Shown: positions 11,057 through 64,000 of the stretch, one piece after another
Numbering within the stretch: the first letter of the stretch is position 1
Layout of the letters: every line of letters starts with the position of its first letter
Made by a program: the position numbers and the translations under genes
Notes under the pieces: generated by a model
What the model was told of the DNA's origin: nothing
What the model saw: only the letters and a program-made list of their open reading frames with translations
Database searches by the model: none
From: Naegleria gruberi
Taxonomy: Eukaryota
Direction: 5' to 3' (one strand)
NCBI GenBank assembly: GCA_000004985.1
Contig: GG738913.1
Length of the DNA: 64,000 nt

Positions 11057-11358
11057 TTTTTTTAAATTATTGTAAAATCCATTATTGGTGAATGCGAAGT
11101 AATCTATTCGAAATAATATAGCCTGCATTGTAAATCATTGTAATTCATTTATTGTAAGCAAGAATATATTAAAATTATTACAAAAATTTTCTTAACCTTT
11201 CACTTGGCATCATGGGTTCAAAAATTCGTTTAAGGAATTTCCGATGAGATTTCATCAGATGTTAATAGATCGATTACATTGGATGATAGTAATTGATAGT
11301 AATTGTGTATGAACCGCCAAAGCTAAATGTCATTAAACATATTCAGAGATAAAAAAAA

Positions 11359-17300: not shown

Positions 17301-18732
17301 TTCCAGATTCCAATTCCTTAAACATTTGTACAAGCTCTTGTCCGATAATAGATCAGATATGGCAAAGAATGCCAAGATTTTGAAAGTCCTCAAATTGATA
17401 ACCTCTCAGAAAATATTCTTTTCAATTATTGCAATCTTTGCCGTGTTGAATGTTTGTTTCTGGACTCTTTGGGTTGTTCTAGTAAGGACACAAGTCATTG
17501 ATGCCTCTACCTATACCTATATTGTATCATCTTGTTACATTACTTGTATTCTCTTCTTTGGAGCAGTTATTTGCATTGTAGCCATTGCTGATTGGATTAT
17601 TTCCACCAAGAAACACGTAACAGCAGGTCAGGAAAGAAAGAGAAAGACTGTCAGTTTCACCACTCTCAGCTCTGAACCACGAGAATCCATCAAGAAGCGA
17701 CTCTTCTCTCCAAAACAACTCTACGAATGGTTAATTCAAGTTGATGAACCACTCTATTTCCGATTCGAAATGCTCCTCTACATGATTTGCTTTGTCTTCC
17801 AAGTGTTAAATCTTGCCATTGGCTCCTCCAGTCTTTCCTACCGATATGCTGACTTGGATTCATACAAGAAAGCACTTGCTCTCGATGGAATCTCCTTCAT
17901 CTTTGAAGTACTCTATGTGGTGAGTTACTTGTTTGTGTTTGGTGGTTTTGCTCTCTTGATTGCCATATTGTACAAGTACAAGAAGAAGAAACAACATGAT
18001 GAAGCCTCTACTTTTCTCATCAACAAATTGAATGGTGGCAACAATAACAAGGTCGACGAAGGAATCATGAGTGAGGAGATGAGGGATGTGCTAGATAAGA
18101 ACGAAGGCTATCTATTATTCGAAGCCTTCTGTGAGAAGGAATTCTCTCTAGAAAACCTCTACTTGTACTCTGACTTGAAAGCCAATGAAACCATCACCAA
18201 AGGAAGACAATTCACCAACCTAACAACCTTCATGAGATTCATCTTTAATAACTACATCCGAACAGGAAGCACCACAGAAGTGAATATACCAGCCAAGTGT
18301 AGGAATAACTTTTTACTTGTCTATAAGAATGTAGCATCAAGTAGTGAACATATGCAACAACAATTGGGAATTGCTGAGAAGGTGAGTAGGAGTGAGGTGG
18401 AAAGACTCGATAGGAATCTACAGGTGGTTATCAAGAATGATCAAGTAGCTACTTTATCAACTAAAACAACAACTACAACTTCTACTAATGAACAACAACA
18501 ACAAGAAGGAAATATCAAATCTTCATCGCCAGTAGCTGCTGTAGAAAATGTTGATCATGTGGTGGAGGGTGTTGTTTCTGCCTTTGAATTCCTCTACAAG
18601 CAAACATTGGTTAATTTGGGTGATACCTTCTCTCGATTTGTCTTTACGAGTGAATACAAGGAATATTTGGCTTCATTGGAGGCTCAGAAGGTTGTTACGG
18701 TGGAAATTATTGCTGCCTACGGAGATGTTTAA
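11359..18732 (+). CDS. Giant adhesion-GPCR-like receptor of about 2440 aa: signal peptide, about 20 NHL repeats, EGF-like Cys modules, Ser/Thr/Asn-rich stalk, GAIN/GPS motif, 7TM, C-terminal RGS domain.
   Basis: Exon 1 is 11359..11497 (MSALKQVKIAALLLNLLIISWCLNVFG signal peptide). A 45-nt intron at 11498..11542 (GTAGGT..AG) preserves phase. Exon 2 is 11543..18732. NHL motifs (YxADxxNxRIRKI) repeat throughout aa 50-950. EGF-like CxxxxxCSGNGQCV appears twice. The GPS motif is CRYWDETNKIWSDRGCQLSNIDLNAGTVECSCSHTTMFTTF. Seven hydrophobic helices follow. The RGS core is LLFEAFCEKEFSLENLYLYSDL...FIFNNYIRTGSTTEVNIPAKCR. Confidence 0.6.
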
Positions 18733-29800: not shown

Positions 29801-30934
29801 GAGTTCTCTAATGTCATATCCAAAATCCAATGGATCTGTATTTGTTTCATAATCCATTAATAAATTGAATGCTTGATGAATTTTATCATCCATGATAAAT
29901 TGAAAAGCTTTTTGAATTATTGAATGATCTTTTTTGGTTGGAATCTTAATATTTGGATGTGTGAATTTCATAACAATTTGAGTAGTAGACTTGTAATTAG
30001 TGATTCCTTCGATAGTTACAAATAGTCCATGAATGGTTTCTTGAATATTAGTGAATTTTGTTTGTTTCAATTTTGAACCTTCTTGGTGTTGGCTCATTAA
30101 TTCTTCTACAGTCAATGTCTGAAATAAATCAACACTTTTGTCTTTGTTAATATTGTAAAATTGTAATGTTTTTCCATCATGTGAAATACAGGAAGCTAAT
30201 ATTGGTTGACAAATTGAAATTCTCTTAAAAAAATAACCATTAAAAGTGATATCATTCTTTTCAATATTTGAAATCAATTGAGCAACAACTTGAATCTCTG
30301 TCTTTCCATTTCTAATATCGGCTTCATCTCCATTCAACACAATCTCTTTCAAAATTGTTTCGGTTTTGTAATCATACACTACATACACATTCCTAAATCT
30401 CAATACCATACTATTTGCGAGAAAAATCAATGAATCACATCTTTTAGATTCAAATTTCTCCAAATTAAATCTTTTTTCAAAAGATAGAAATAAAAAAGTC
30501 ACTGGTAATTTTCTGTAAACTGTAAATCGAAATTCCTTTCCCCAAACAATACAAAAAGAATCGTCTAAACTTTGTAAAGGAATTCTTCTTGTACAAGAAA
30601 TCAATTCTCCTGTTTCTTTCTTTTGGAAAATGGAATTTCTTTCCTTTAGTGTAAAATCCAAATCAGATCCAGTCTTCTGGAATGCGTTACCCTCAAATTT
30701 AATTGTCAGCTCTTTTCCTAAAGCTGAAAAACTGTAAGAAAAGAGTTGTACAATAGAATTCACACCTTCACCTTGTAAACTTTTATCAATTACTGTTGAG
30801 TAATGAACAAGCAACATTCCTTTTTCTTCATGACATTCAATTTTTTGAATGGAACAAGTTTCGGGTGAATTTTCTTGGAATAAATGTTGGTGGTGAAAAC
30901 TTACCACAAAATAATTCCCAAATTTGTTCCACAA
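26894..30934 (-). CDS. Large protein with C-terminal DUF4116 repeats followed by a protein kinase domain (HRDLKLAN, DFD). It carries one in-frame TAA at 27562..27560.
   Basis: A 992-aa ORF (30934..27956) holds DUF4116-type repeats (FASExFKxDxxxxLxAV...) in its last about 250 aa. The kinase exons are 27977..27722 and 27678..26894. The intron between them, 27721..27679 (43 nt, GTATGT..CAG), reconstitutes HR|DLKLANVIIN. The splice upstream of 27977 is uncertain; one candidate is donor cccGTAAAA with acceptor tgCAG. The activation segment reads GTW-TAA-YLAPEV. Confidence 0.5.
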
Positions 30935-31815: not shown

Positions 31816-34351
31816 ATGTCGCAACTTGATGTCAGCTCACATAATGCAAGAGATTCGTCTATTCCACTCCGTGCTACTACTTCTACCCTTCTAAAACAAT
31901 CAACACTCGAGCAATCGTGTGAGAAAGTAAACGAAAGTTCATTAATCATTGAAACATTTCCTTCCCAACATTCTATTGGAAATCAAACACGAAAGGTTCA
32001 TTCTCCACGTTCAGATCAAACTCTTTCCGAAGAAGAAACAAATTCCATCATTTTGGAAATGAAAGAAATGGACGAAATGTTTCGAACAAACAAGAAGAAA
32101 TCGAAATTTGCACATCTTTATCAATCAAATAAGAAACAAGGTTTAAATCAATCGTTTGCCACATCAGAAAAGTTTAGTTCATCATCCCATAATGAAAATT
32201 TATGTGCATCTTGTTGTGGAACTTTACGTTGGTCAACTGTCATGATTTTGACAGCTGTCTTTTCGATAATGATACTTTTATTTGTTGCAATCATTTCCTC
32301 GATTATTGTTACGAGTTATGATGAGTTGGAAAGAGGAAATTCCAAAGCAGATATGAAAAGAGTTGTCAAAAGTTTTTATGATGAATTTGTGAATTCATTG
32401 GAGGTATGTTTGACTTTTGACAATGAGTTTTAATTGAAATTTTGGATAGATTATGCAAGCAGTTGCTGTTTGGGATGAGCCTTATAAATTATTTCAAAGA
32501 TATTATGATCCATCAGAAAATCAAACTGAACTGGCAGTTGACATGCAACTTTTTTTGGAAACTAATATTGATTCAGCTCAAATGTTGTTGGAAAAACACA
32601 ACTATGCGCTGTTCTATACCTTGAATGGAACTTTAATTGCAAGTAGAGCTCACAATCTTATAGACGAAAGTCAAGATTTATCCGATTTGTCAAAAATTCC
32701 AAAAGAATTATTGGAATTGAATGTAAATTCGAATCCTCTTTTCAGAAATGCAGATAAAGCTGGAACTTCGAATGGTGGTTTCCTTAAAGTTTCGAATGGC
32801 GTAGTAGAAAATAGCAAAATTGTCATGTTAGTGGCGAAACCAGTTTCTCCAAGTAATTTCAATGAAAATAATCCAACTTCTGGATTGATAGTGTATGGTA
32901 GACATGTCACTTATCAAACTAAGGAAAGAAATGTGTTTAGAGCTTCTACATGTGTTAGTTTTTTGAATTTTGACGAAACTTTACAAAAATATTCGAATGT
33001 TAATGCTACGAGAGTTTCAGTAACAAGTAATATTTGGGAGAATGATCAAGTTTTATCCATTGATATGTATGACGACCTCTCTAGTAGAAACTCTCTCGAT
33101 GATCGTCATTGCTATTCGAAATCTGAACTAAACTCAACTTCCCCTCGAGTTGGTTCCATTCAATTCCTTGCCGATCTCAATGGAAACCCAATCCTAGCCA
33201 TCCGATCCGATACTGAACGAAACATTTACCTCCTAGGAGTTCGTTCCTTAGCCCTCTCCATTGCCTTACTAGTTTTTTCATGTATTATTGCAGCCATTGT
33301 AATCATTGCCTTTGTGGAGAGGCGAGTATTGAGGAGAATGTTTAAACTTTCAAGGAGAATTCAGGAAATTACAGCATCACATGATCCTAAACAGAGAATT
33401 GAAATTGGTCGAGGAGGAAACTCAATTAATGCCTCGGAAAGAAATTTGATTTTTGATGAAATTGACACGACGGCGAAATATATTAATGAAATGTTGACTA
33501 GTTTGGATATTGTATTGGAAGAGCAGTTGAAGGAACAGAAAATGTTAAGAAAACTATTGGAAAGAGTGTACACAGCAGAGGAATCAGGAAGTGCCATTAT
33601 GAATGCTGTGAAAGATGTCGTGTTTATTGTGAATGGAGATAGTGGACTAGTTCTGAATGCAAATAACAAGTTTTATGAACAGATGGAGAGGAGTGTGATG
33701 GAAGTGGAGGCAAAGGATCAAGTTTATGTTTCGAATTTGTTTTTGGAAATGAAATCACTCGAAGCCAAATTTCAGAATAATTTGAGAACTGCCTTACTCT
33801 CCCTTAATGATGGAAAATCGCATCTTTTCAGAGGAATGACTCCATCTGGTAAAATTATTAGATACAATGTATTCATTTCCAAAACAAAAGTCATGCAAAA
33901 TAACGAGAAGGTCATTTCATTCCTATTTATGGCAAAGAAGGACGATTCACTTTCTTTAGGAATTGACCAAGAAATCATTAATGAAAAATTTGAGAAAATG
34001 ATTAATAATACGAAAAAGAGAAGAAAATTCCAGAAATTCTGCTCAGAAAAAGGTCAACTCTACAATTTCAAGTTTATTAGAGAAGTAAGGGATTACAAAA
34101 CAACGGAACTTCCAATTGACCGAGCAAGGAAACAATCTGAAATTTGTTCCAACTTTTTGAGGAAAGATTCTCCATTCCCATTGAATATTGGAGCAATTGA
34201 TTTGATTAAGGGAGAAATTGAAAAGATTCTAAAAGAAGAAACACCTCAAATTTCCTTATTTGATGGATTGAATGATATTTTGGAAAGTATTTTGAAATCA
34301 GAAGTTTTTACACTTTACAAAATTCAAAAATCAAATCTTCTCTACACATAA
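31816..34351 (+). CDS. Two-TM sensor-type signalling protein: cytoplasmic N-terminus, TM1, extracellular sensor domain of about 270 aa, TM2, PAS-like segment, C-terminal RGS domain.
   Basis: Exon 1 is 31816..32403. A 46-nt intron at 32404..32449 (GTATGT..TAG) preserves phase. Exon 2 is 32450..34351. TM helices: VMILTAVFSIMILLFVAIISSIIV and YLLGVRSLALSIALLVFSCIIAAIVIIAFV. The RGS-like C-terminus is FQKFCSEKGQLYNFKFIREVRDYK...ICSNFLRKDSPFPLNIGAIDLIKGEIEK...LFDGLNDILESILKSEVFTLY. Confidence 0.5.
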
Positions 34352-44931: not shown

Positions 44932-47253
44932 ATGTCAATAACAACACAACATTTCGAAAATTTTAACAATAACAACCACTCCTCACAAACCAATGTGCAA
45001 AACACTGCTTCTAGTACCTCAACAAGTGGCAGCAGTCCAAGAAATAACTCTCACAGAATTAATAGACAATCATTAGAATCTAGATGGAGACTCCGAGAAC
45101 GTTCTAGAAGATATTCAGTTGCCTTGTCAACTAATAGTGGTGGAAGTGCTAGTCCTCCATCAACTTCAACAACTTCAACCTCTGCAGCCAATAATAATAA
45201 CAATTCGAATAATGATTCGTTTGTTTCTTCTCAAAGTTTTGGATCCAATGAAGAAACACAGCCACAACAGCAACAACAATCAACACCAAGCTCTAGAAGT
45301 TCCTCACTCTTTGATGCTTCCCAAATTCAGAAAAACATTAAAAAGAGAGGCAGTAGTTTGGGAGCTAATTTCATTTCTGGTCGAGATAACAAGACGAATA
45401 GTGTTGATGGAGTGGTTTTTAATGGAACTCAGAGAGATACCTCTCTGTCACTTGCAGTAATGGATTCCTCATTGGCTAATGGTCCAGTTTCAATGACCTA
45501 TGGTTCTGTTGATGCATTGAGAAATAGATTTTTGGACTTTGTGAAATCTTGTGGAAGCCAATCAAAACATTTGAAGAATCCACAATTGGATGAAGAGTTT
45601 GAGGTTAAATTATTGTTTATGGACTATTTCTATGATGGAAGTACTAGAAAACCATCAAAATTATTGAAAGATGTGCCAACTGTTTTGACCTTGTTGGATG
45701 TTTACTGTCATCATTTGGTTTTTCATTTTGATGATTGGCATTCACTTCCAGAAAGTGAAGATGAATATCCATATTTCAAACATATTGTGGAAACAGTCAT
45801 TCCTGATAAGGAAAAGTTCAAATGGATGAATCATTCGAGATTTGAACAATTTTTAATTGAAAAGTATCAAGATGCCATCTCTAAGGATTATCCACCACTT
45901 CGTTCTGATGAGATTTTGTTGAATCAACAAGAAACCAAGGAGAAGGAATCATCTTTTTCAACTACTACTGAGCAAACCAACAATTCATTGGATAATCTCC
46001 ATGCTAGACCAACCATTAGTTTATTACCTGAAAATTCTTATCAGGAAACTGAGGAATTGAGAAGAGACAGTGTTGCCAGTGATGATTCAAGCACTTCTGA
46101 TAGTAATGTAGTCATTACTGAGAATAGTTCCAACCCAATTCCAAAACCAACGCACAGAGTTGGTGTTTTGGAGGAAATTCACATGTTATGCGACATGTTC
46201 TTCTATGAATTGGAAGATTTATTTGTTCTCTATCAAGAAAAGAATCAAAACTATGTTCACAAATGGGTTCAACTTGGTTTAAAGAATGGATCGATTCCAA
46301 CCTATGTCATTGAAGTGTACCGTAAGAAATTGGAATATAACGAGAGTACGCAATCTCAATTCACAGTTGATGCCAGTGATTTTGTTTCACAACATGTCAT
46401 TGATAAGGATTGGAAGTTTTTGAGATATATGTGTAAGGAATATTCACCAGATTGGTATTGCTCTTACAAGGATATTGGAAATGTTGTGCAGTGGACCACT
46501 AAGAGAGATTACACAACCGATAATTTGAAATTGAGAAACTCCAAAATTGTTGGTTATATTAATTTGCCAATGGAGGATGTTGTGAAATCCTTCTCATTTG
46601 ATCATCATTTTTCATATGCCTTTGAGAATATTGAATTCCACAATTATCATCCAATCAATGCTAGTAATTCATTGCACAAGTATCCCTCTGCAACAGTTTC
46701 GGGTACATTCAATTTAAGTTCAGTCTTCTCAAAGAGAAGTATAGAGCAAGTTATTTCATGTAGATCAGTATTTGTGGGTAACGAATTGACTGAACACATG
46801 ATATTGTTCAAATCATGTGATTTATCACCAAACGAAAGTAGTAACTCCAAGAAGGGAAAGGTTAAATTCATGGGTCTTCGTCTCGTTTCTAAAATTGATA
46901 ATAACAGAACTAGATATTGTGAATTGAGGTCGGGAAATCTTGGGGGTGTTTTGAATTCTTCCCTAATTATTAACAATCCAATAATTAATAAGAAAGTTGT
47001 AAAAGGAGTTCATGGAGGATTAATTAATGTATTGAAACTTTTGAAGAATAATGGATTTCCATTCCCAGATGAGAAGGAGAATCACGTAGCTCGTGTTTGG
47101 ATTGATTATTGTAAACAGTATTGCAATGTTGATGTGAAATCTCTGTATGGACAATCAGCAGTAAGAACCATTGATTTATCACATAGCAAGACCAAGTACA
47201 GCAATGATGATTCCTCTTCCTCAACAACAGAAACAACATCATCCAATAAATAA
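44932..47253 (+). CDS. Member A (773 aa) of a three-gene tandem paralog family of unknown function. It has an extra Ser/Asn/Gln-rich N-terminal extension.
   Basis: The C-terminal ~500 aa align with 47677..49275 and 49493..51127. Shared motifs include YVHKWVQ vs YCKKWMQ/YCKKWLQ, ILFKSC vs FLYKSCNSDT/ILYKSCNSDT, and the C-terminal WIDYCKQYCNVD vs WRTFCEYCREYFKVD/WRTFCDYCREHYKID. Confidence 0.45.
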   Translation: MSITTQHFENFNNNNHSSQTNVQNTASSTSTSGSSPRNNSHRINRQSLESRWRLRERSRRYSVALSTNSGGSASPPSTSTTSTSAANNNNNSNNDSFVSSQSFGSNEETQPQQQQQSTPSSRSSSLFDASQIQKNIKKRGSSLGANFISGRDNKTNSVDGVVFNGTQRDTSLSLAVMDSSLANGPVSMTYGSVDALRNRFLDFVKSCGSQSKHLKNPQLDEEFEVKLLFMDYFYDGSTRKPSKLLKDVPTVLTLLDVYCHHLVFHFDDWHSLPESEDEYPYFKHIVETVIPDKEKFKWMNHSRFEQFLIEKYQDAISKDYPPLRSDEILLNQQETKEKESSFSTTTEQTNNSLDNLHARPTISLLPENSYQETEELRRDSVASDDSSTSDSNVVITENSSNPIPKPTHRVGVLEEIHMLCDMFFYELEDLFVLYQEKNQNYVHKWVQLGLKNGSIPTYVIEVYRKKLEYNESTQSQFTVDASDFVSQHVIDKDWKFLRYMCKEYSPDWYCSYKDIGNVVQWTTKRDYTTDNLKLRNSKIVGYINLPMEDVVKSFSFDHHFSYAFENIEFHNYHPINASNSLHKYPSATVSGTFNLSSVFSKRSIEQVISCRSVFVGNELTEHMILFKSCDLSPNESSNSKKGKVKFMGLRLVSKIDNNRTRYCELRSGNLGGVLNSSLIINNPIINKKVVKGVHGGLINVLKLLKNNGFPFPDEKENHVARVWIDYCKQYCNVDVKSLYGQSAVRTIDLSHSKTKYSNDDSSSSTTETTSSNK

Positions 47254-47372
47254 TCGTATAATTAACTATAATATTATTAGTCATTGCCAATATATAGTAC
47301 GCTGTAGCAATAAACGAGACAAATGTGATCACGTAATTTCGTTTTATTCGACTTGATAGATAAAATAGTGTA

Positions 47373-47443
47373 GGGGCGGTGGTGTAATGGTAACATCGCA
47401 GCCTCCAAAGCTGTGGCCGGGGGTTCGATTCCCCCTCGCCCCC
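47373..47443 (+). tRNA. tRNA-Trp (anticodon CCA).
   Basis: Cloverleaf folded by hand. Acceptor GGGGCGG/TCGCCCC. D-arm GTGT-AATGGTA-ACAT. Anticodon stem GCAGC/GCTGT with loop CTCCAAA (anticodon CCA at 47405-47407). 4-nt variable loop. T-arm GGGGG-TTCGATT-CCCCC. Discriminator C. Confidence 0.85.
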
Positions 47444-47676
47444 TACATTTTGCTTTTTTCTTTTTAAAATTATTCTATTAAGCTTTTCTCGTACTCTTAA
47501 TTTTCAATTCCAATTGTCACTCTTCAAACTTGAAAAATTAGCAAATTATTTCAAAAATATTTTTCAAAATTTTATCTTTAAAACCAAAAAGTAATGAATC
47601 ATCTCCAACATCTCCAAATATCAACAAACATGTAACGCAAGAACAATATCTCTCCCATCAACACTTATCTTTTTTT

Positions 47677-49275
47677 ATGACAGCAACCGCTATGACAGCT
47701 GCTGACCTACAAAAATCCAAAAAAATGTCATTTAGAAACAAGACGAATCCGCCTAAAGTATGCAAATGTCTTCCTAAAATTCCATTCGAAGTGTTGATTG
47801 GTTGTTTTCAAGAGAGTGAAAGGGTTTCGTTTCAAAGTGCTTCAAGTTTTTATTCGAATGCTTTTGGTCAAGGAAGACGAAACACCTTTTCTGGAAAGAG
47901 TTGTCTGTATCGAACTGTAGACTTACGAACAAAATTTGAAGAATATCTTTACGATAACTTGCCAATATTCGACAGTGAAGTCATTTGTCAAAAATTACAA
48001 TTTCTTGACATTTTCTGTGAGTCAATGAAAATCAAAGGAAAACCTCTCTATCACATTAGAGATGTCTTTTCACTTTGCAATACTTATCTTTATGAACTCA
48101 TTAAGGGTATTGAACAAGATGGTTCTGTCATTATCCACAACAATAGTTTGGAATATTCCTTCCTTAAACAGTTTAGTTGTGTTGTGAGTGAGAATGAAGA
48201 GTTGTTGCCAGTTTTTTCCAGTCATGAATATTTGAAGAGTTGGTTTAGTAAGAAACAGAAAGAATTGTTGGAATGGAAAGTGGACGAAACTTTTCAGCAC
48301 ACAACTGAGGAATATCAAGATGATCAACTTGGCATTTTGATCACCATGTTTGTCAATCAAATGCATGGACATTTCTTATATTTCCAAGAAAAGAATTCCA
48401 AATATTGCAAAAAATGGATGCAAGAAAACATTACAGAGCTACCGAAACATTTATTCGAATGTCTAAAAAGTGCTGCAGAAAAAACACAAAAATACAGAGA
48501 TCATCTTGCCTACAGCCACAACGATGGCTTTTCCATTCCCAAAATTATCGATGCAGATTTTGAGATTATCCACCACTTGTCGAATCTCAGAAGTTCCAGT
48601 TGGAAAATGCTTTCCATCAGCAAACTCAATGAAATTCTTTCATTTTCATCAACGGAGAATTTCACATCTTGTCCAAAAGGAAAAATTCACAAATTTGTAT
48701 ATTATGAACCTTACAATATTCTCCAGTTGACCAAAGCAATGTTATCATACAAATATGATCGTCCTTCTGAATTTTACAAACTTGGTGAGTGTCAAGAATA
48801 TCAAAAACTAGATGTCAATAATTCTTCCAAAAAGTATTCGACAGTTGTCATGCCTGTCAGTTTACAACTCAACTCTATCCTGCCAAAACGTCAAACCACA
48901 TCAATCTTTGCCACCAAAGCAAAATTCATCAATACTGAACTAGTCGAAACTACTTTCCTTTACAAATCATGCAATTCAGATACCAAGAATCCATACCTCA
49001 CACTTGGTGGATTTATCCTACAAAAAGACGATACGAATCGAACAAGAATAATCGATTCGAAAATGTATCATTTTGGAGGAATTTTACAAACTGATTTTGC
49101 GTTGAGTTTATTTGTGGCAAAATCAAGGAAAGAGTTGAAACCGAGGGTTGAGTGGATGATGGAGAAGGTGAGGGAGAAAGGTTTCGTATTGGATGAAGAG
49201 AAGGAATTGGTGTGGAGAACGTTTTGTGAATATTGTAGAGAATATTTTAAGGTGGATCCGAATGAATTGGAATAA
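47677..49275 (+). CDS. Member B (532 aa) of the tandem paralog family.
   Basis: About 45-50% identity to 49493..51127 across the full length: ...KYCKKWMQENITELPKHLFECLK / KYCKKWLQDNLPILPKHLFEDLK; TLGGFILQKDDTNRTRIIDSKMYHFGGILQTDF / TVGGFIIQKDDVDRCRIIDLKMFNMGGFLQSDF. Confidence 0.5.
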   Translation: MTATAMTAADLQKSKKMSFRNKTNPPKVCKCLPKIPFEVLIGCFQESERVSFQSASSFYSNAFGQGRRNTFSGKSCLYRTVDLRTKFEEYLYDNLPIFDSEVICQKLQFLDIFCESMKIKGKPLYHIRDVFSLCNTYLYELIKGIEQDGSVIIHNNSLEYSFLKQFSCVVSENEELLPVFSSHEYLKSWFSKKQKELLEWKVDETFQHTTEEYQDDQLGILITMFVNQMHGHFLYFQEKNSKYCKKWMQENITELPKHLFECLKSAAEKTQKYRDHLAYSHNDGFSIPKIIDADFEIIHHLSNLRSSSWKMLSISKLNEILSFSSTENFTSCPKGKIHKFVYYEPYNILQLTKAMLSYKYDRPSEFYKLGECQEYQKLDVNNSSKKYSTVVMPVSLQLNSILPKRQTTSIFATKAKFINTELVETTFLYKSCNSDTKNPYLTLGGFILQKDDTNRTRIIDSKMYHFGGILQTDFALSLFVAKSRKELKPRVEWMMEKVREKGFVLDEEKELVWRTFCEYCREYFKVDPNELE

Positions 49276-49492
49276 AGTTGTTGTTTCGAATAAGTTTAGG
49301 TTCCGGAAATTTGGTTTCGGATTAAAAGTTGATTGTAAATTATTTGGTGATTGTAAACTAATTAACTTTCAACATTATTTGTTTCTTATTAATATTGTCG
49401 TTTCCCGAACTAATGTTCAAGATTTTGAAGTTTAGTTTGTTTGGGCAATTCATGTCTTTTAAGAAATTTGATATTTCACGAAAGTTGACACG

Positions 49493-51127
49493 ATGAAAAA
49501 CGAAGAGAATCATTTTCAAACATTAAAAAAAAATAACTTAACAACCTATTCGAAATCCTATTCGAAAGGTCCATTAGAAATGTCGAGTGATGGTTATGAA
49601 CTGTTAACGATTCCACTTGAAGCTGTTATTGGCTTTAAAAACGTTCTCTCCAAGAAATCTTCTTCCCAAACATTAAAATCTAGCCGAAGTGTTTCGTCCG
49701 CAGCCAAGACGAAACCTACACAATCTAACGTGGAAGAAATTCGATACAAATTCGAAGAATATATTTCTTCAGGTGAATTAGAAGAATCCTCACAAATTTC
49801 CCTTCAAAAACTTCAACTTTTGGATTGGTTTTATGATCCAAAAAGGAAAAGATCAATAACTGTGAAAAATCAAGTGGAATTATTCACAACATGTAATTCG
49901 TATCTGTTCGATTTGATTAAACAGAGTGATGAGTCAGGATTGATGATTCAGGAAGATCAGAGTGTGGAGTTTCCATTTCTGTCACAATTTGATGTCATTG
50001 TGCAGGAAAATCAAAAGATTTTGCCAATTTTTTCATCACACAAATATTCGAAAGAGTGGTTTTTGAAGAAACAACAAGAATTGAAAGAGTTTCAACAGAA
50101 AAGATCATCCACCTCGACAGGAATTGATCTATCGTCTGAAGATATTGCCAGGGATTATGAGGAATTTCAAGATTATCAATTGGATATTTTGGTTGTAATG
50201 ATTATCAATCAAATGAAAGATTATTTCAGTTATTTCCATAATGAAAATGCAAAATATTGTAAAAAATGGTTGCAAGATAATTTGCCAATTCTACCAAAAC
50301 ACTTGTTTGAAGATTTAAAGATCAAACATGACAGAATTCAAAAGTTTAAAGATTTACTTTCGTATAAGGAACAAGATATGGTCTATAGCACGATACTTGA
50401 TTCAGATTTTGAATTTATTAAGCATTTATCTGAAAGTACATCCGATTGGAAACTATTCGAAAAATCTAAAATTAACTCAGTTCATGTCTTTACCTCAAAA
50501 GAGAATTACACGAGTGTTTCTGGCACAAAAACCATGAAATATGTCTATTATCATCCGTACGATATTCACAAAGCAAGTAAGGGGTTTCTCTCGTTTGATT
50601 TTGCAGAACAAGATGGCATGTTCACTTGTGGAGAATTTAGAGATTACAAACAATTGGATATTAACAATTCATCCAGAAAGTATTCAAGTGCAGTTCGTTC
50701 ATGTACAATAGATCTAGGGAAATTCTTCTCCAAACGTCATAATGAAACTGTTGTGACTTCTAAGGCCAAATTCATTGGTAATGAGCTAGTAGAAACCATT
50801 ATACTTTACAAATCATGTAACAGTGATACTACACAAAAAAACAAATTCCTAACTGTTGGTGGATTTATTATTCAGAAAGATGATGTTGACAGATGCAGAA
50901 TCATTGATTTGAAAATGTTTAACATGGGTGGTTTTTTACAGAGCGATTTCATTGTAAACTTTGGAATTAAAAATCATTTGAAACAGATGGGACCCATGGT
51001 AAGTCAAATGATGAAAGAAGTTGAGGAAAGTAATTACAAAATTGATTCAGAAAACAAACCAATTTGGAGAACATTTTGTGATTATTGTAGAGAACATTAC
51101 AAAATTGATGCTAACCTGCTTGAATAA
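49493..51127 (+). CDS. Member C (544 aa) of the tandem paralog family.
   Basis: See 47677..49275. Confidence 0.5.
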   Translation: MKNEENHFQTLKKNNLTTYSKSYSKGPLEMSSDGYELLTIPLEAVIGFKNVLSKKSSSQTLKSSRSVSSAAKTKPTQSNVEEIRYKFEEYISSGELEESSQISLQKLQLLDWFYDPKRKRSITVKNQVELFTTCNSYLFDLIKQSDESGLMIQEDQSVEFPFLSQFDVIVQENQKILPIFSSHKYSKEWFLKKQQELKEFQQKRSSTSTGIDLSSEDIARDYEEFQDYQLDILVVMIINQMKDYFSYFHNENAKYCKKWLQDNLPILPKHLFEDLKIKHDRIQKFKDLLSYKEQDMVYSTILDSDFEFIKHLSESTSDWKLFEKSKINSVHVFTSKENYTSVSGTKTMKYVYYHPYDIHKASKGFLSFDFAEQDGMFTCGEFRDYKQLDINNSSRKYSSAVRSCTIDLGKFFSKRHNETVVTSKAKFIGNELVETIILYKSCNSDTTQKNKFLTVGGFIIQKDDVDRCRIIDLKMFNMGGFLQSDFIVNFGIKNHLKQMGPMVSQMMKEVEESNYKIDSENKPIWRTFCDYCREHYKIDANLLE

Positions 51128-54904: not shown

Positions 54905-56993
54905 TTATTGAATGAAACATTTCTTCTTTTCATCATCAATTTCCGAATCAAATTGTGAATCTTCATCAGCACCACCACTCTTTGATTGCTTCTTCTTCAA
55001 TCTCTTTCTATATTTTTCCATCTTTTTTTCATATTCCTCAACTTGTTTAAAGTATGAATCTGGTGGCCATTTGTTTTCAGTAACATGTTTCAGATTTTCA
55101 CCTGTCAAAAGTTCCCATTCCCTTCTTGCTTTCATTGGACCATAATTTGTAGAGATGAAATGGAGACAAAAGTTGGCCAATTGATTGGCTTCATAAGTTT
55201 GAGCTAGTAATAGTAGACCTATAATGTCAATGTCAGCTTTTTCAATTCCTTGAGCAACTGATTTGTCAATATTTTTCGAGATGAAAATTTCACACATTGA
55301 GGTCAATCCAGACATGCCATATTCGTTGGCCAAGCTCAACAATCCAACAGCATTTCTTTCATTGATGGTAGAGTGAGCAGAGTACAGATATTCGAATAGG
55401 GCGTGGAATTCACTTATTCTATTCTCATTCTCACCAATTTCACCACTCAAATCTACTTGCCTTGATGAGTGCTCTACGAAATTGCCCTCAAACATTGTTC
55501 TGAATACATCACAATTAGCAGAGAGGAATAGTTTGTGTCCCTGAAAATTCTTGGAAGAATCAGTTGTGGAAAAGACAATTTCGACATCGGAGTGAGTTTT
55601 CTTATCAAAGTACTTTTTCTTAATTTCACTACCCAATAGATCATTAAGATAGGTTTCAATACTTTCATTGAACACATCTTCCTCTCCTCTCTGGTAATTA
55701 CTGACTATATTGTCAGTGTATTCACATTCAAAGATGGTAGATGCAATCTTGACCTTATTGAGAAATTGATCTTTTTTACACCTTTCCAGCATAGTTTCCG
55801 ATCCTCCATAATATTGGATTTCCAATAGGGATTTGAAAGCCCTATGATGAATAGTGTTGGAGAGTCTGAATTTCAATATATTCGGCTCATTCTCATCAAT
55901 AGAGACAGATGAGAAACCACTCACTCTACCTCCATTAATTTTGGCACTCAATTTTTCAAATGCTTCATGTGAATAGCTATTCATTCCAGCATCTCTACAC
56001 ACCAATACGTCATCGAATAATTTTCTAATAACTTTGGAGGGAACACAAGCCAACACCAATGAATGGGCCTTAATTTCCACATCAATGTCCTTAGTGGAAT
56101 TGTAAATAACAAACTTGGTATCACAGCAAAAATCACTATCCAGAAGGTTTTTAAAACCCTTGCCATAATTTGAGCTTTCCACATAAATCCAAGGAGCTTT
56201 ACCAGCTGGAGGCATTACAGGAGGAGTTGGTTCAATATCTTCAGAGTTTCCAATCACTACCTTCTTTCTTCCTTTTTTTGAAGATTTGGACTCGTCAATT
56301 GCTTGTGAAATTGCCAAATTGAAGAGTTTATCAATATTGTACATGGTTCTAGAGCTTGTAACAATGGATCCTGAAGCAGGTGAGTTCTGTACCATTTGCT
56401 CAATCATTTCCTGAGTGATTATTGAGTCACGATCCGCATCAGAGACAAGATCACTCTTACACCCAACCAATATGATCTATTTGAATAGAAAGGGAATATT
56501 AAATGAATACATTGGTATATGGAATGGTCAACTTACTGGAATATCAGGACAGTGATGAATCAATTCTGGAATCCATTTTGATTTGACATTTGCAAATGAA
56601 GCTCGATTGACCATTGAAAAACTGAATCATTTTGTTAGAGAAATAACCACTGAAAAACATACCAAACAAAGAAGACATCAGTTCCTGGATATGAAAGAGG
56701 TCTCAATCTGTCATAATCTAGTCAATTGTCAAATTGTCACAATTATTAACAACAATTTCAACATACCTTCTTGACCAGCAGTATCCCACAATCCAACATT
56801 ATAATTTCTATTTCCATATGTCACATTAGCACTCTTCCGAAATCAATTTAACTGTCATCAAATTACTTACGTAATTGTCAAAAACTGTTGGAACATAATC
56901 TTCGGGAAATGAATTTGTGGTGGAGGCAATCAAAAGACAACTCTTTCCGACGGCGCCATCACCAACAACTACCAATTTCAAGCTATTGTCCAT
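54905..56993 (-). CDS. racA: RhoBTB-type atypical Rho GTPase (Rho GTPase domain plus two BTB domains). Three exons.
   Basis: Exon 1 is 56993..56871 ([41 protein letters not shown]). Intron 1 is 37 nt (GTAAGT..AAG). Exon 2 runs 56833 to about 56768 ([22 protein letters not shown], donor GTATGT). The last exon is 56476..54905 ([10 protein letters not shown]... then two BTB-like regions and a basic/acidic tail). The GTPase plus tandem BTB architecture is that of RhoBTB, as in Dictyostelium RacA. Confidence 0.7.
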
Positions 56994-57674: not shown

Positions 57675-58373
57675 ATGATTGAGGCATTGAAGAGTGATGT
57701 ATGTTTAATAAGAAACTGTTCTGAGGAAATACGGACTGATAGAGAAATTATTGACATGATTATTGACATAGATGCAGCAAGTTCTTTTCAATATATTGGA
57801 AAATTCAAGGAAGATGAAGATATTGTGAAAAAGGCACTATTTAAATCAAACTTCACGATTCTACATTATATCAATAGTGATTTTCTGCTTAATAATAGAG
57901 AACTAGTTCTCACAATATTGAAAAGTAACGGAAAGTATATTAACGAAATGCCAGAGGCAATCCAAAAGGATAGAGAATGCTTTTTCCTAGCTGCAAGAAC
58001 GCCTTATTTTACATCCAAAGTTCAATCTCTTTACAAAATAATAGAGAGTGACAGAGAGGATTTCAAATCAATTCTGCAATTTAATCCGGACCTTTTGGAG
58101 AAGACCATTTTCAAAGACGACAGAGAGCTTCTTAAAGAGGCTCTTTCACACTGTGGATTTTGTCTCAGATTTGCAAGTGAAGAATTCAAGGCAGATAAGG
58201 AACTTGTTTTGACAGCCGTAACAAAAAATGGATCTGCCCTTATGTATGCCTCTCCAAAACTCAAAGATTGTGAAGAGATTGTCTTGGCAGCTGTAACGAA
58301 TGATGGAAAAGCAATTCGATTTGCTTCAAAGAGATTATCGAATCAGAAAACTCTAAATTGTAATATTTATTAA
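57675..58373 (+). CDS. DUF4116-repeat protein (232 aa visible). The N-terminus may be lost in the 57445..57619 gap.
   Basis: Repeats of about 35 aa: CGFCLRFASEEFKADKELVLTAVTKNGSALMYASPKLKDCEEIVLAAVTNDGKAIRFASKRLSN. Same repeat type as in the 26894..30934 kinase. Confidence 0.45.
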   Translation: MIEALKSDVCLIRNCSEEIRTDREIIDMIIDIDAASSFQYIGKFKEDEDIVKKALFKSNFTILHYINSDFLLNNRELVLTILKSNGKYINEMPEAIQKDRECFFLAARTPYFTSKVQSLYKIIESDREDFKSILQFNPDLLEKTIFKDDRELLKEALSHCGFCLRFASEEFKADKELVLTAVTKNGSALMYASPKLKDCEEIVLAAVTNDGKAIRFASKRLSNQKTLNCNIY

Positions 58374-58999: not shown

Positions 59000-60058
59000 A
59001 TGAGATTCGTCAGAGAGCGTCTTGAAGTCGTTACCTGTTACATTCCTTTCAGTGGTGAGGCGGTTGGTGATAACACTTCTCAAACTTTCCAGAAGACTCC
59101 TGGTAAGAACCATTATCCATCCAATGCTTGCTTTAACGTTTTTTGGTATCAACAACCAACATGGACACCACCTATCTGCAAGTATCTAATAGAATATTAT
59201 GATACTCTCAAATCATTACCAAGTGCTTCGGAAGGTACTAGTGCTGTTGTTAGATTAAGTTCCACAAGAAAAACTGGTAACAACGCTTTTATTAGAAGTT
59301 CAGGCTCTGGATTTTACATTCTTCCCAACACAATTATTACAAATAGTCATGTTGAAGCTGAACTTGAGAGAATTGGTGGTAAAATAACTGCATTCAGCAA
59401 TGCATGGAACAATAGCAATTCAACAATTTTGCCTACCAGGATCAGAACCTTGCATTCTGGGAAAACTATCAAAGATTCCCAATTGGGTAATTTATTTCCG
59501 GTCACTTATAGTTGGGTTGGAAGAGATCCTATCACTACCAAAGTAGGAGACTTTGATTACTTTGATGTCACCGCAATGGACTTTACTACTGGTTCTCTTG
59601 GTAATAAGGTTTTTTTCATTCCTTCTCCAAGAATTTTGCAACCTAATGATGAAATTATTTCTCTTTCTTATCCAGGAGACAAGCATCAACAACCTCCTTA
59701 TTCTAGTAGCCTTACTTATGTTGATTGGGCTCCAAGTGAATCCTTTTTGAAGGACAATATCTTTAATGGCTACGGAAAGTTATGTGCAAGTGTTGGGACG
59801 ATTATGCACCCATACAAATTGTCAGAAAATGGATTTGTAGAAAAAGATGAAAACTTTCGTTACGATTCGTCTAATCAAGAATGTTTGGCAAGCTCTGAAT
59901 GCTTAATATATGGAAGTTCTGGTGGTGTTATGATTTCAAAATTCTCACAAGTGTATCAAATTGGAGAGTATACATTAGTTGAGTTTAATGCTATCCACAC
60001 TGGTGGAGAGTTTGTTCGATGTTCAGATTGTTTGAAAGAAAGTTCATCTGCTTACATA
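59000..60058 (+). CDS. Trypsin-like (chymotrypsin-fold, Trypsin_2-type) serine peptidase. The 3' end runs into the 60059..60108 gap.
   Basis: NAFIRSSGSGFYILPNTIITNSHV (His region) ... DFDYFDV (Asp) ... CLIYGSSGGVMISKF (GxSGG Ser motif), in the canonical His-Asp-Ser order. Confidence 0.45.
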
Positions 60059-60695
60059 NNNNNNNNNNNNNNNNNNNNNNNNNNNNNNNNNNNNNNNNNN
60101 NNNNNNNNTTCTATATCATTATAGATCATGTACATCAGGTTGGTAAAGTTTCAATAAGTGGTCCTTTTTCAAGATTTCATCCTATTCGTCATAGTTGAAG
60201 AAGTGTGATTGAGGGAAGAAATCTTTAAATATGAAAGTTAAAATAAATTTGATGTTCGATGTATACTCACCAAATGGAACATTTTCATGTCAGGATTCAA
60301 TATGTTTTGATGAGAAACTCAAAAGTTATAGTTGACCTATTTTACTTCACAACTTCCCTTTTCACTTCATACTTTTATATCTACAGACTTGAACTTTTGA
60401 AATTTCATATGAAAGTGATTATAAATGTTGTTAATGGTGATATAGACTATATAATCTCATTAAAGGATTTTGAAATTATCATTCTTCCTATAGTTTCATT
60501 TATGAAATTTTAATCTGACATTATTTACAAAGTTAATATTTTATAAATTGAAAAACTAAATATACCACGTTGTTCTACTCATCATTTCCTATCGAATGAT
60601 ATAAAATTTAATGATATTTGAATAAGTTTATAATTTTGGGCTAGGGTTTGAAGGTTGGGTTTAGAATAATTCTATTTTTAGAATTGGGTTTGGGT

Positions 60696-61091
60696 TTGGG
60701 TTTGGGTTTGGGTTTGGGTTTGGGTTTGGGTTTGGGTTTGGGTTTGGGTTTGGGTTTGGGTTTGGGTTTGGGTTTGGGTTTGGGTTTGGGTTTGGGTTTG
60801 GGTTTGGGTTTGGGTTTGGGTTTGGGTTTGGGTTTGGGTTTGGGTTTGGGTTTGGGTTTGGGTTTGGGTTTGGGTTTGGGTTTGGGTTTGGGTTTGGGTT
60901 TGGGTTTGGGTTTGGGTTTGGGTTTGGGTTTGGGTTTGGGTTTGGGTTTGGGTTTGGGTTTGGGTTTGGGTTTGGGTTTGGGTTTGGGTTTGGGTTTGGG
61001 TTTGGGTTTGGGTTTGGGTTTGGGTTTGGGTTTGGGTTTGGGTTTGGGTTTGGGTTTGGCCCTGGGTTTGGGTTTGGGTTTGGGTTTGGGT
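60696..61091. repeat. (GGGTTT)n telomere-like hexamer microsatellite of about 66 units with one variant unit. Degenerate TAGGGTTTGAAGGTTGGGTTTAG units precede it at 60638-60670. It ends in an N-gap.
   Basis: Read directly. ORFs 60641..61183 (PKPKPK...) and the first 150 aa of 60648..62351 (GLGLGL...) are translations of this repeat, not genes. Confidence 0.95.
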
Positions 61092-61141
61092 NNNNNNNNN
61101 NNNNNNNNNNNNNNNNNNNNNNNNNNNNNNNNNNNNNNNNN

Positions 61142-62351
61142 ATATTTATTCACAGTGCCAAGTATCATCAAAGAATATTTCAAAAATAGTGAATTTAGAT
61201 TTGAAGAAGAAATTAGTATTACAAAATCAACATTTGAAACTGAAACAATGCTCTTAACGCTTGTACCTTATTCGAAATTGAATGAATTTGATTTGAATTC
61301 ATGTACCAAAGTAATGGTTGTTGGTTTTTTAGTTCTGACCAGTTTACAAGGTTTTATTTTCCAAATCGATAGCAAAAAGCTGCAATTTCAAAAACAGGAT
61401 CCAAATACTGAAGAACAAACTGAAAAGCATGATGAAGAGAATTCATCCAATAAGAGAAAAAGAAATAATAGCAAAGAAACAGGATCAAAGAAAAGAAAAG
61501 TTTCAACAATCACCAAAGAAATTAATTATTCTGACAATTTGAAAGAAATACTTCAAGAATATGACATTAATGGTAAAACAGCTACGAAAATAAGAAATGA
61601 TGATAAGGTAGCTCTTTATTTTAAACTTGATAGTGGGTTTTTAAAGATAGTTCACTATTTTGATAATAGTTCAGAGAATGTGAAAGGCATGCAAAGTATC
61701 AAATCCATTCAACATGACAATATTAATCAGATTTTTCAATTCAAGAAACTCTCCATAACTATCTCACAATTAGATGAATTGTTTTTTGAAAGAATTTCAC
61801 TTACAACCAAATCAGAACCAACAATATTTGTAACATTTTCACAATTTGTTGGTGATATTATTACTTTCATTATTTACCTGAACCAAAATGATTTGAATAC
61901 CAAATTATTATGTTTTATCAAGTTAATGATGGATGCTATTGAAGCAGTTAATATATTACATGAAAATAATATTATTCATTGTGATATTTCAATTAGAAAT
62001 GTTGGCATGTTATTTACAAAACCTGTCATGACATCATATGCCAAAGAAAAAAGCTCAATATTGGAAGCATTGCCAAATGTTTCAAACTTTAATTTCATTT
62101 TGATTGATTTCAATCATTGTAAAGTGGAAGGACAAGAACAAGCTAAATGGAACATTTTTCCAGAATGTANNNNNNNNNNNNNNNNNNNNNNNNNNNNNNN
62201 NNNNNNNNNNNNNNNNNNNAATTTTGATGTGATTATTCAATTGTTGAAGGATGTTATTGAGAATGAGGGTAAATCTGACATTTGCAATTTCACCAAAACG
62301 TTCAATTTACTATATGAAAATGTCATTCAACCAATTAAGAATAAAAACTAG
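61142..62351 (+). CDS. Copy 2 of the kinase-like gene (duplicate of 53150..54831). It begins in a gap, contains an internal gap at 62170..62219, and has a continuous reading frame.
   Basis: About 90% nt identity to copy 1 over 53370..54831. Single frame through the region where copy 1 is broken. Confidence 0.45.
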
Positions 62352-62377
62352 TAAAGTTTACATCATTGTTTGAATAT

Positions 62378-63342
62378 TTATTGAATGAAACATTTCTTCT
62401 TTTCATCATCAATTTCCGAATCAAATTGTGAATCTTCATCAGCACCTCCACTCTTTGATTGCTTCTTCTTCAATCTCTTTCTATATTTTTCCATCTTTTT
62501 TTCATATTCCTCAACTTGTTTAAAGTATGAATCTGGTGGCCATTTGTTTTCAGTAACATGTTTCAGATTTTCACCTGTTAAAAGTTCCCATTCCCTTCTT
62601 GCTTTCATTGGACCATAATTTGTAGATATGAAATGGAGACAAAAGTTGGCCAATTGATTGGCTTCATAAGTTTGAGCTAGTAACAGTAGACCTATAATGT
62701 CAATGTCAGCTTTTTCAATTCCTTGAGCTACTGATTTGTCAATATTTTTCGAGATGAAAATTTCACACATTGAGGTCAATCCAGACATGCCATATTCGTT
62801 GGCCAAGCTCAACAATCCAACAGCATTTCTTTCATTGATGGTAGAGTGAGCAGAGTACAGATATTCGAATAGGGCATGGAATTCACTTATTCTATTCTCA
62901 TTCTCACCAATTTCACCACTCAAATCTACTTGCCTTGATGAGTGCTCTACGAAATTGCCCTCAAACATTGTTCTGAATACATCACAATTAGCAGAGAGGA
63001 ATAGTTTGTGTCCCTGAAAATTCTTGGAAGAATCAGTCGTGGAAAAGACAATTTCGACATCGGAGTGAGTTTTCTTATCAAAGTACTTTTTCTTAATTTC
63101 ACTACCCAATAGATCATTAAGATAGGTTTCAATACTTTCATTGAACACATCTTCCTCTCCTCTCTGGTAATTACTGACTATATTGTCAGTGTATTCACAT
63201 TCAAAGATGGTAGATGCAATCTTGACCTTATTGAGAAATTGATCTTTTTTACACCTTTCCAGCATAGTTTCCGATCCTCCATAATATTGGATTTCCAATA
63301 GGGATTTGAAAGCCCTATGATGAATAGTGTTGGAGAGTCTGA
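62378..63342 (-). CDS. racA: Copy 2 of the last racA (RhoBTB) exon. About 99% identical to 54905..55870. Truncated by the terminal N-run at 63343..64000.
   Basis: Near-identical sequence. For example, 62385..62618 matches 54912..55145 with one substitution. Confidence 0.55.
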
Positions 63343-64000
63343 NNNNNNNNNNNNNNNNNNNNNNNNNNNNNNNNNNNNNNNNNNNNNNNNNNNNNNNNNN
63401 NNNNNNNNNNNNNNNNNNNNNNNNNNNNNNNNNNNNNNNNNNNNNNNNNNNNNNNNNNNNNNNNNNNNNNNNNNNNNNNNNNNNNNNNNNNNNNNNNNNN
63501 NNNNNNNNNNNNNNNNNNNNNNNNNNNNNNNNNNNNNNNNNNNNNNNNNNNNNNNNNNNNNNNNNNNNNNNNNNNNNNNNNNNNNNNNNNNNNNNNNNNN
63601 NNNNNNNNNNNNNNNNNNNNNNNNNNNNNNNNNNNNNNNNNNNNNNNNNNNNNNNNNNNNNNNNNNNNNNNNNNNNNNNNNNNNNNNNNNNNNNNNNNNN
63701 NNNNNNNNNNNNNNNNNNNNNNNNNNNNNNNNNNNNNNNNNNNNNNNNNNNNNNNNNNNNNNNNNNNNNNNNNNNNNNNNNNNNNNNNNNNNNNNNNNNN
63801 NNNNNNNNNNNNNNNNNNNNNNNNNNNNNNNNNNNNNNNNNNNNNNNNNNNNNNNNNNNNNNNNNNNNNNNNNNNNNNNNNNNNNNNNNNNNNNNNNNNN
63901 NNNNNNNNNNNNNNNNNNNNNNNNNNNNNNNNNNNNNNNNNNNNNNNNNNNNNNNNNNNNNNNNNNNNNNNNNNNNNNNNNNNNNNNNNNNNNNNNNNNN

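What the first reader, a model, noticed from the sequence alone, without database searches (positions are those of the whole stretch)
44932..51127. Three head-to-tail paralogs of an uncharacterised protein family, with a tRNA-Trp(CCA) gene between members A and B
The products of 44932..47253, 47677..49275 and 49493..51127 share a domain of about 500 aa with conserved Cys/Trp landmarks (KYCKKW[ML]Q, [FI]LYKSCNSDT, TxGGFIxQKDDxxRxRIIDxKM, C-terminal WRTFCxYCRExxKxD). B and C are about 45-50% identical and A is more diverged, with a long low-complexity N-terminal extension. This looks like stepwise local duplication rather than one recent event. I cannot match the domain to any family I know. The conserved C-terminal WxxxCxYC pair could be a small metal- or disulfide-containing module. 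A tRNA-Trp gene sits in the 420-bp spacer between A and B; tRNA genes can act as chromatin boundaries or as targets of tRNA-gene-directed retrotransposons in dictyostelids.
Basis: seen in the sequence. Interest (0 to 1): 0.5.

Follow-up and report, generated by a model that had tools for sequence, protein, structure and literature searches.

The report
Naegleria START-domain lipid-binding gene trio
Three neighbouring genes of the amoeboflagellate Naegleria gruberi belong to a lineage-specific, never-annotated family. Its C-terminal half is a highly diverged START lipid-binding domain, so the "unknown domain" is an unrecognised branch of a well-known fold, and the tRNA-Trp gene between two of them is an ordinary bystander.

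Summary
Three intact same-strand ORFs lie at the stated coordinates: A 773 aa, B 532 aa, C 544 aa. A genuine tRNA-Trp(CCA) sits between A and B.

Corrections:
- The window is Naegleria gruberi (Heterolobosea), not a dictyostelid. B is identical to an N. gruberi "predicted protein".
- B and C are 42% identical. A matches them at 23-28%, significant only over about 330 aa by BLAST.
- A belongs to a different, deep clade with an N. lovaniensis orthologue. C is closer to an unlinked paralog than to B. The trio is therefore not a simple stepwise local duplication.

An exhaustive HMMER search found a family of at least 42 clusters. Every named member is from Naegleria or Willaertia and is labelled "hypothetical". 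No member hits Pfam.

The "WxxxCxYC" motif is a non-conserved helix, not a metal module.

Most likely function: cytosolic lipid or sterol binding, transfer or sensing. Modest novelty.

The parts
44932..47253 (+). Gene A, 773 aa. Member of the 'A clade'; its orthologue is N. lovaniensis C9374_002784.
   Evidence: ORF. It is 50% identical over 587 aa to P0004. Tree.
44932..45504 (+). Low-complexity, presumably disordered N-terminal extension of A (aa 1-191; Ser/Asn/Thr/Gln-rich).
   Evidence: Translation. No counterpart in B or C. Boundary mapped.
45505..46371 (+). Helical N-domain of A (aa 192-480), with a large insertion relative to B and C.
   Evidence: Alignments. Conserved landmarks LRxxF, KLxFxDxFYD, H183 and W259.
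46372..47049 (+). START (helix-grip) domain of A (aa 481-706).
   Evidence: Aligned to the START domain of the C model. BLAST to B and C over this region.
47373..47443 (+). tRNA-Trp (anticodon CCA), followed by a T-run (a pol III terminator by inference).
   Evidence: ARAGORN. Rfam RF00005 at 57.5 bits. Sequence.
47677..49275 (+). Gene B, 532 aa. From the second Met (47692) it is identical to the N. gruberi 'predicted protein' P0002.
47911..48516 (+). Helical N-domain of B (aa 79-280).
48517..49176 (+). START domain of B (aa 281-500).
49493..51127 (+). Gene C, 544 aa. This is the protein that was modelled.
   Evidence: Model m86c85dab0531 has pLDDT 85.4 and pTM 0.85.
49727..50368 (+). Helical N-domain of C (aa 79-292; about 8 helices plus a short beta-hairpin). 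No detectable relatives.
50369..51028 (+). START domain of C (aa 293-512). Topology: a1, b1-b3, a2/a3, b4-b9, long a4.
51059..51100 (+).
   Evidence: Modelled as helix H523-536. Conservation: Y531 31/40, C532 29/40, C529 8/40.

Best explanation
A, B and C are three members of a multigene family. Among named organisms it is confined to Naegleriidae (Naegleria gruberi, N. fowleri, N. lovaniensis, Willaertia magna), and N. gruberi has at least 9 copies.

Each protein has four parts:
1. A disordered, low-complexity N-terminus.
2. A family-specific alpha-helical domain of about 210 aa.
3. A highly diverged but topologically canonical START / helix-grip domain of about 220 aa.
4. One extra C-terminal helix.

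Shown: the fold, the homology chain to bona fide START proteins, the taxonomic range and the age of the duplicates.

Inferred: like other START proteins, they enclose a hydrophobic ligand (a phospholipid, sphingolipid or sterol) in the cavity between the beta-sheet and the long C-terminal helix. They would act as cytosolic lipid carriers or lipid sensors. The helical N-domain, confidently packed against START in the model, would provide targeting or an output function. Near-invariant charged residues on the START strands (K349, K440, D464) are candidates for buried head-group contacts.

The three genes are adjacent but are not a simple duplication series. B and C come from an old tandem duplication within one clade. 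A is from another, much older clade. The tRNA-Trp gene is an independent pol III gene that happens to occupy the A-B spacer.
For: Organism:
- B is 100% identical to N. gruberi P0002.

Family:
- Exhaustive HMMER gave 71 hits, 42 with E<1e-30.
- Named members are only Naegleria and Willaertia, all labelled 'hypothetical' or 'predicted'.

Fold:
- The AF2 model from 43 sequences has pLDDT 85.4 and pTM 0.85, with an a-bbb-aa-bbbbbb-a topology.
- The Foldseek PDB top 31 are all START domains, led by STARD10 at E 6e-8.
- The significant matches in the viral library are giant-virus START proteins.

Sequence link:
- The family profile reaches proteins whose C-domain is Pfam START. P0066 has RGS plus PF01852 at 25.6 bits, above the gathering score of 22.
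- hhalign of the family C-domain against those C-domains gives 99.85%, E 1.6e-30, over 240 columns.

Constraint and age:
- pN is 0.39 against a saturated pS of 0.72 for B-C.
- The ORFs are intact and an orthologue of A exists in N. lovaniensis.

Clade structure.
Against: - No member reaches Pfam START or any other Pfam model, even at E<=10.
- The family profile finds no START chain in PDB by sequence. START membership therefore rests on a predicted structure and on a two-step homology chain.
- Some START and SRPBCC domains are not lipid carriers; they serve in localisation, as enzymes or as receptors.
- The N-domain has no assigned function.
- No expression data were examined.
Confidence: 0.75

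Rival explanations
1. The START-like domain is retained only as a scaffold. The proteins would then not be lipid carriers. They could instead be protein-interaction or localisation modules (as proposed for the DLC/STARD13 START domain) or small-molecule enzymes or receptors of the wider SRPBCC/Bet v 1 superfamily.
For: - Sequence identity to lipid-transfer START domains is only 6-15%.
- Pfam START does not detect any member.
- An extra C-terminal helix and a tightly packed N-domain (pTM 0.85) could occlude the usual lid helix.
Against: - The full nine-strand topology with a2/a3 is the START type.
Confidence: 0.2
2. The helical N-domain is a degenerate, expanded RGS domain. The family would then be a decayed offshoot of RGS-START proteins and would still act on G-alpha subunits.
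For: - The nearest outgroup proteins are RGS (N-terminal) plus START-like (C-terminal) in the same order; 10 of the 24 weak hits scanned carry RGS.
- The full-length hhalign alignment extends from START back over the RGS a8-a9 helices. With relaxed MAC it reaches the first RGS helix.
- The HMMER alignment to P0045 covers 'KHDVFPRFVRSK' against the family's 'eDlFslFqkkn'.
- N. gruberi has an expanded G-alpha repertoire (PMC3971589).
Against: - Domain-only hhalign gives probability 0.3-2.9%, P 0.016-0.16.
- HMMs of N-domain segments never rank real RGS segments above 9,600 shuffled decoys.
- No RGS Pfam hit occurs in any of 43 members at E<=10.
Confidence: 0.12
3. One reading: a wholly unknown ~500-aa domain with a C-terminal Cys-based metal or disulfide module, generated by stepwise local duplication, with the tRNA as a functional boundary or retroelement target.
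For: - No Pfam or PDB sequence match.
- B and C do share CxxC in the last helix.
- The three genes are adjacent and co-oriented.
Against: - START fold and homology are established.
- The Cys pair is present in only a minority: C529 8/40. A has IDYCKQYC and P0001 has CDYA. The segment is helical.
- A and B/C lie in separate deep clades.
- The organism is not a dictyostelid.
- No repeats or retroelement ORFs lie around the tRNA.
Confidence: 0.03

Closest known systems
Eukaryotic START (StAR-related lipid transfer) domains: STARD10, STARD2/PCTP, CERT/STARD11, STARD3/4/5, StAR (Pfam PF01852)
   Same: - Same helix-grip fold and element order (a1, b1-3, a2/a3, b4-9, long a4) and a similar size of about 220 aa.
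- Foldseek E down to 6e-8.
   Different: - Only 6-15% identity.
- PF01852 does not detect any of 43 members.
- An extra conserved C-terminal helix is present.
- The domain is always fused to a family-specific ~210-aa helical domain, rather than to PH, RhoGAP, thioesterase, MENTAL or homeodomain partners.
- The ligand is unknown.
RGS-START proteins of uncultured protists (P0051, P0058, P0060, P0066, P0069 and others). The architecture is noted for several eukaryotes in de Mendoza et al. 2014 (PMC3971589).
   Same: - These are the closest sequence relatives of the C-terminal domain: hhalign 99.85%, E 1.6e-30.
- They share the order of an N-terminal helical domain followed by START.
   Different: - They carry a Pfam-detectable RGS domain of ~120 aa. 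A, B and C carry a ~210-aa helical domain with no significant similarity to RGS.
- They are shorter overall, at ~420-450 aa.
Giant-virus START-domain proteins (Pithovirus, Bodo saltans virus, Fadolivirus and others)
   Same: Same fold by Foldseek, E 5e-7 to 2e-5.
   Different: - They are single-domain ~200-220-aa proteins.
- No sequence-level relation was detected.

Membership tests
START / StARkin (helix-grip, SRPBCC superfamily) | Helix-grip fold: N-terminal helix, nine-stranded antiparallel sheet with two short helices after b3, and a long C-terminal helix lying across the sheet. | tested here: met
START / StARkin (helix-grip, SRPBCC superfamily) | Sequence match to the curated model PF01852 above its gathering score. 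| tested here: not met
   0 of 43 family members match, even at E<=10.
START / StARkin (helix-grip, SRPBCC superfamily) | Homology, by profile methods, to proteins that do pass PF01852. | tested here: met
   The family profile hits P0066, which has RGS plus START at 25.6 bits against a gathering score of 22. hhalign of the C-domain against the relatives' C-domains gives 99.85%, E 1.6e-30.
START / StARkin (helix-grip, SRPBCC superfamily) | Internal hydrophobic tunnel that binds one lipid or sterol molecule. | not testable with these tools
There is no binding assay.
RGS domain (PF00615), for the N-terminal helical domain | Sequence or profile similarity to RGS. | tested here: not met
   No Pfam RGS hit in 43 members. 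Domain-only hhalign probability is at most 2.9%. HMM segments do not separate real RGS segments from 9,600 shuffles. Only an anchored extension of the START alignment reaches into RGS.
RGS domain (PF00615), for the N-terminal helical domain | Nine-helix RGS bundle fold. | tested here: inconclusive
Cys-based zinc or disulfide module (C-terminal WxxxCxYC) | Conserved set of metal-ligating or paired cysteines in a knuckle or loop geometry. | tested here: not met
   C529 8/40 and C532 29/40. A has I...C...C and P0001 has C..A. The segment is an alpha-helix, H523-536.
Local tandem gene array from one duplication series | Adjacent, co-oriented copies that are each other's closest relatives. | tested here: not met
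   The adjacency and orientation part is met. The closest-relative part fails. A groups with P0004, P0005 and P0006 and lies far from B and C. C's nearest relative is the unlinked P0001.
tRNA gene | Cloverleaf match with an anticodon and a covariance-model score above threshold. | tested here: met
   ARAGORN calls Trp(CCA). Rfam RF00005 scores 57.5 bits against a gathering score of 29. A T-run lies downstream.

The most novel reading that the evidence does not exclude
The ~210-aa helical N-domain is a new fold that has replaced, or evolved beyond recognition from, the RGS domain of RGS-START ancestors. The Naegleriidae expansion (at least 9 copies in N. gruberi) would then be a family of lipid-gated signalling proteins. 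Ligand occupancy of the START cavity would be read out through the tightly packed N-domain and the extra C-terminal helix, possibly feeding into the unusually large G-protein signalling system of Naegleria.
Probability: 0.15. Interest if true: 0.5.

Novelty: new variant of a known kind. Interest (0 to 1): 0.3.

Why it matters
- It assigns a fold and a plausible biochemical role (lipid or sterol binding) to a family of "hypothetical proteins" that current domain libraries do not detect. The family occurs in Naegleria, including the pathogen N. fowleri, and in Willaertia.
- Lineage-specific lipid-handling proteins in N. fowleri could interest work on sterol and lipid metabolism as a drug-target area.
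- The family is also a test case of START domains that are invisible to PF01852.
- Beyond that, the result is ordinary. The gene cluster and the tRNA have no evident special mechanism.

Tried and rejected
1. Pfam scans of A, B, C and all 43 family members, at E up to 10, gave nothing relevant.
2. PDB sequence searches with C alone and with the family profile gave only low-complexity artefacts.
3. The word-indexed homologue search returned only the two N. gruberi proteins, even with a 43-sequence profile. The exhaustive HMMER search was needed.
4. The first AF2 run, with 4 sequences, gave a poor model of pLDDT 42. It was superseded by the 43-sequence run.
5. The afdb50 fold library was unavailable.
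6. The RGS origin of the N-domain looked suggestive in anchored alignments. It was rejected as unsupported by domain-only hhalign and by a decoy-calibrated HMM search.
8. Synteny with N. lovaniensis: only the family genes match and the flanks do not. There is no tRNA at that locus.
9. Exact look-ups of the B and P0001 contigs found no record in that collection.
10. Literature searches for Naegleria START or RGS-START found no description of this family.
Full report
**Observation**

A is at 44932..47253 (773 aa), B at 47677..49275 (532 aa) and C at 49493..51127 (544 aa). All are on the + strand and uninterrupted.

A single tRNA gene, tRNA-Trp(CCA), lies at 47373..47443 on the same strand, in the A-B spacer. 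ARAGORN and Rfam (RF00005, 57.5 bits) agree on it. It is followed by a T-run, and it is the only tRNA in the 64-kb window.

B and C are 42% identical over 517 aa (E 1e-140). By BLAST, A is similar to B (23%) and C (28%) only over its last ~330 residues. A multiple alignment shows that A also keeps the N-terminal landmarks, with large insertions and a 190-aa low-complexity extension.

tblastn finds no further copies in the window. The copies are not assembly duplicates:
- Only two short stretches show 64-75% nucleotide identity.
- Synonymous sites are saturated: pS 0.72 for all three pairs, against pN 0.39-0.51.

**Organism**

A homologue search with C returned two "predicted proteins" of Naegleria gruberi. 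One of them, P0002, is identical to B from its second methionine. The window is therefore N. gruberi (Discoba, Heterolobosea, Naegleriidae), not a dictyostelid. The window GC of about 33% fits this.

**The family**

The word-indexed search never went beyond the two N. gruberi proteins. An exhaustive HMMER search of 1.84 billion representatives with a profile of A, B, C and P0001 did better. It found 71 proteins, 42 of them with E<1e-30 and matched over nearly the full profile.

Every member that carries a name is a "hypothetical" or "predicted" protein of one of four species:
- N. gruberi: P0001, P0002 (=B), P0007, P0016, P0023, P0030, P0037
- N. fowleri
- N. lovaniensis
- Willaertia magna

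The rest sit on short metagenome contigs. With A and C, N. gruberi has at least nine members.

BLAST and a neighbour-joining tree of 40 full-length members give the following picture:
- A groups with P0004 (N. lovaniensis C9374_002784, 50% identity over 587 aa), P0005 and P0006.
- B, C, P0001 and P0003 form another clade, far away in the tree.
- Within that clade, C is closer to the unlinked P0001 (47%) than to its neighbour B (42%).

So B and C descend from an old tandem duplication that was followed by dispersal. A is a member of a much older lineage that merely lies next to them.

In N. lovaniensis the orthologue of A lies next to a different family member (P0013, opposite strand), with a succinyl-CoA ligase gene in between. 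That locus has no tRNA and no shared flanking genes.

**What the protein is**

No member of the family hits any Pfam model, even at E<=10. The family profile finds nothing real among PDB sequences.

The weak tail of the exhaustive search was informative. Those proteins match only the C-terminal ~250 profile positions.
- 10 of the 24 scanned carry an N-terminal RGS domain.
- One of them (P0066) also passes Pfam START: PF01852, 25.6 bits against a gathering score of 22.
- Another gives a weak hit to DUF3074.

A profile-profile comparison of the family's C-terminal domain with the C-terminal domains of these proteins gives 99.85% probability and E 1.6e-30 over 240 columns.

AlphaFold2 with only four sequences gave a poor model (pLDDT 42). 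With the 43-sequence alignment it gave a confident one for C (pLDDT 85.4, pTM 0.85):
- Residues 1-75 are disordered.
- Residues 79-292 form about eight helices and a short hairpin.
- Residues 293-512 have the canonical START order: a1, b1-b3, a2/a3, b4-b9, long a4.
- A further helix spans 523-536.

The fold searches agree:
- Foldseek against the PDB: the top 31 hits are all START domains. These are STARD10 (E 6e-8), CERT, STARD13, STARD5, STARD4, STARD3, PCTP and a bacterial START.
- Viral structure library: the significant matches that carry a name are giant-virus START proteins.

The "unknown 500-aa domain" is therefore two domains. The C-terminal one is a strongly diverged START domain.

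**The N-terminal domain**

The outgroup has RGS in the equivalent position, so I tested whether the helical domain is a decayed RGS.

Anchored alignments were suggestive. The full-length hhalign alignment runs back from START over the RGS a8-a9 helices. With relaxed settings it pairs the family's LRxKFxxFL motif with the first RGS helix.

Every test without the START anchor failed:
- Domain-only hhalign gives probabilities of 0.3-2.9%.
- HMMs of N-domain segments never rank genuine RGS segments above 9,600 shuffled decoys.
- No RGS hit occurs in Pfam.

I treat the RGS origin as unsupported, at about 12%. The N-domain has no known relatives.

**The cysteine motif**

The WxxxCxYC motif is modelled as an alpha-helix (H523-536), and the pair is not conserved:
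- C529 occurs in 8/40 members and C532 in 29/40.
- Many members instead have DYCxxYC.
- A reads IDYCKQYC and P0001 reads CDYA.

A metal or disulfide module is not supported. The truly conserved positions include R84, F87, F109, H183, M236 and W259 in the N-domain, and D305, W319, K349, S393, K396, K440, G456 and D464 in the START domain.

**How it most likely works**

Shown:
- The proteins have a two-domain architecture with a START fold.
- They are ancient paralogs under constraint.
- Among named organisms they are confined to Naegleriidae.

Inferred from established knowledge of START domains:
- A single hydrophobic ligand (phospholipid, sphingolipid or sterol) is held in the tunnel between the sheet and helix a4.
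- The proteins act as soluble lipid carriers or sensors.
- The conserved charged residues on the strands are candidates for buried polar contacts.
- The N-domain and the extra C-terminal helix, confidently packed with START (pTM 0.85), would supply targeting or an output function.

Confidence is about 0.9 for the fold and family assignment and about 0.55-0.6 for actual lipid binding. The main rival (about 0.2) is that the START fold is used for something other than lipid carriage.

The tRNA-Trp gene shows no link to the family. It has no associated repeat or retroelement, and it is absent from the N. lovaniensis locus.

**Novelty and verdict**

The family is undescribed. All members are "hypothetical", there is no Pfam model, and no literature was found. 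RGS-START architectures are mentioned only generically in PMC3971589.

It belongs to a well-known fold class. I rate it a new variant of a known kind: a Pfam-invisible START branch fused to a lineage-specific helical domain. Interest is modest, at about 0.3.

Noticed in passing
window 11575..18732 (+): A 2385-aa ORF combines NHL/teneurin-NHL repeats, EGF-like domains, a GPS (GPCR proteolysis site) motif and an RGS domain. This is an adhesion-GPCR-like receptor fused to RGS.
   Followed up: no
window 32453..34351 (+): A 632-aa protein has an N-terminal CHASE4 sensor domain (28.8 bits, just above the gathering score) and a C-terminal RGS domain. It is a second RGS protein in the same 64 kb as the START family, whose nearest relatives are RGS-START proteins.
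   Followed up: no
window 44932..47253 and 49493..51127: A and C never came back from the protein databases, although B (P0002) and P0001 did. They may be missing from the N. gruberi reference gene set. However, the word index also missed the N. fowleri and N. lovaniensis members, and B itself is absent from the representative list, so this is not conclusive.
   Followed up: partly
L001 (N. lovaniensis PYSW02000016.1) 4283..7180 (-) and 10001..12346 (+): Two family members (P0013 and P0004, the orthologue of A) lie in divergent orientation around a succinyl-CoA ligase beta gene. Family members therefore cluster in another species too, but with different partners and no shared flanks. Willaertia magna has two >90% identical copies on one contig.
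   Followed up: partly
window 27956..30934 (-) and 57675..58373 (+): Two proteins are built of DUF4116 repeats.
   Followed up: no
window 3178..4989 (-): A protein combines a Schlafen AlbA_2 domain with BTB_2. Further BTB proteins lie at 54905..56470 (-) and 62378..63298 (-).
   Followed up: no
window 60001..64000: There is a strong local GC skew (+0.38 at 60001-62000), followed by a drop in GC to 21.7% at 62001-64000.
   Followed up: no
L002 (JGI metagenome 3300062526 contig Ga0606088_0082) 9325..10608: The RGS + START relative P0066 lies on a 20-kb contig. Its other genes (kinase, RING, OATP, NHL, ion channel) and fragmented gene calls indicate an uncultured eukaryote. The organism was not identified.
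   Followed up: partly
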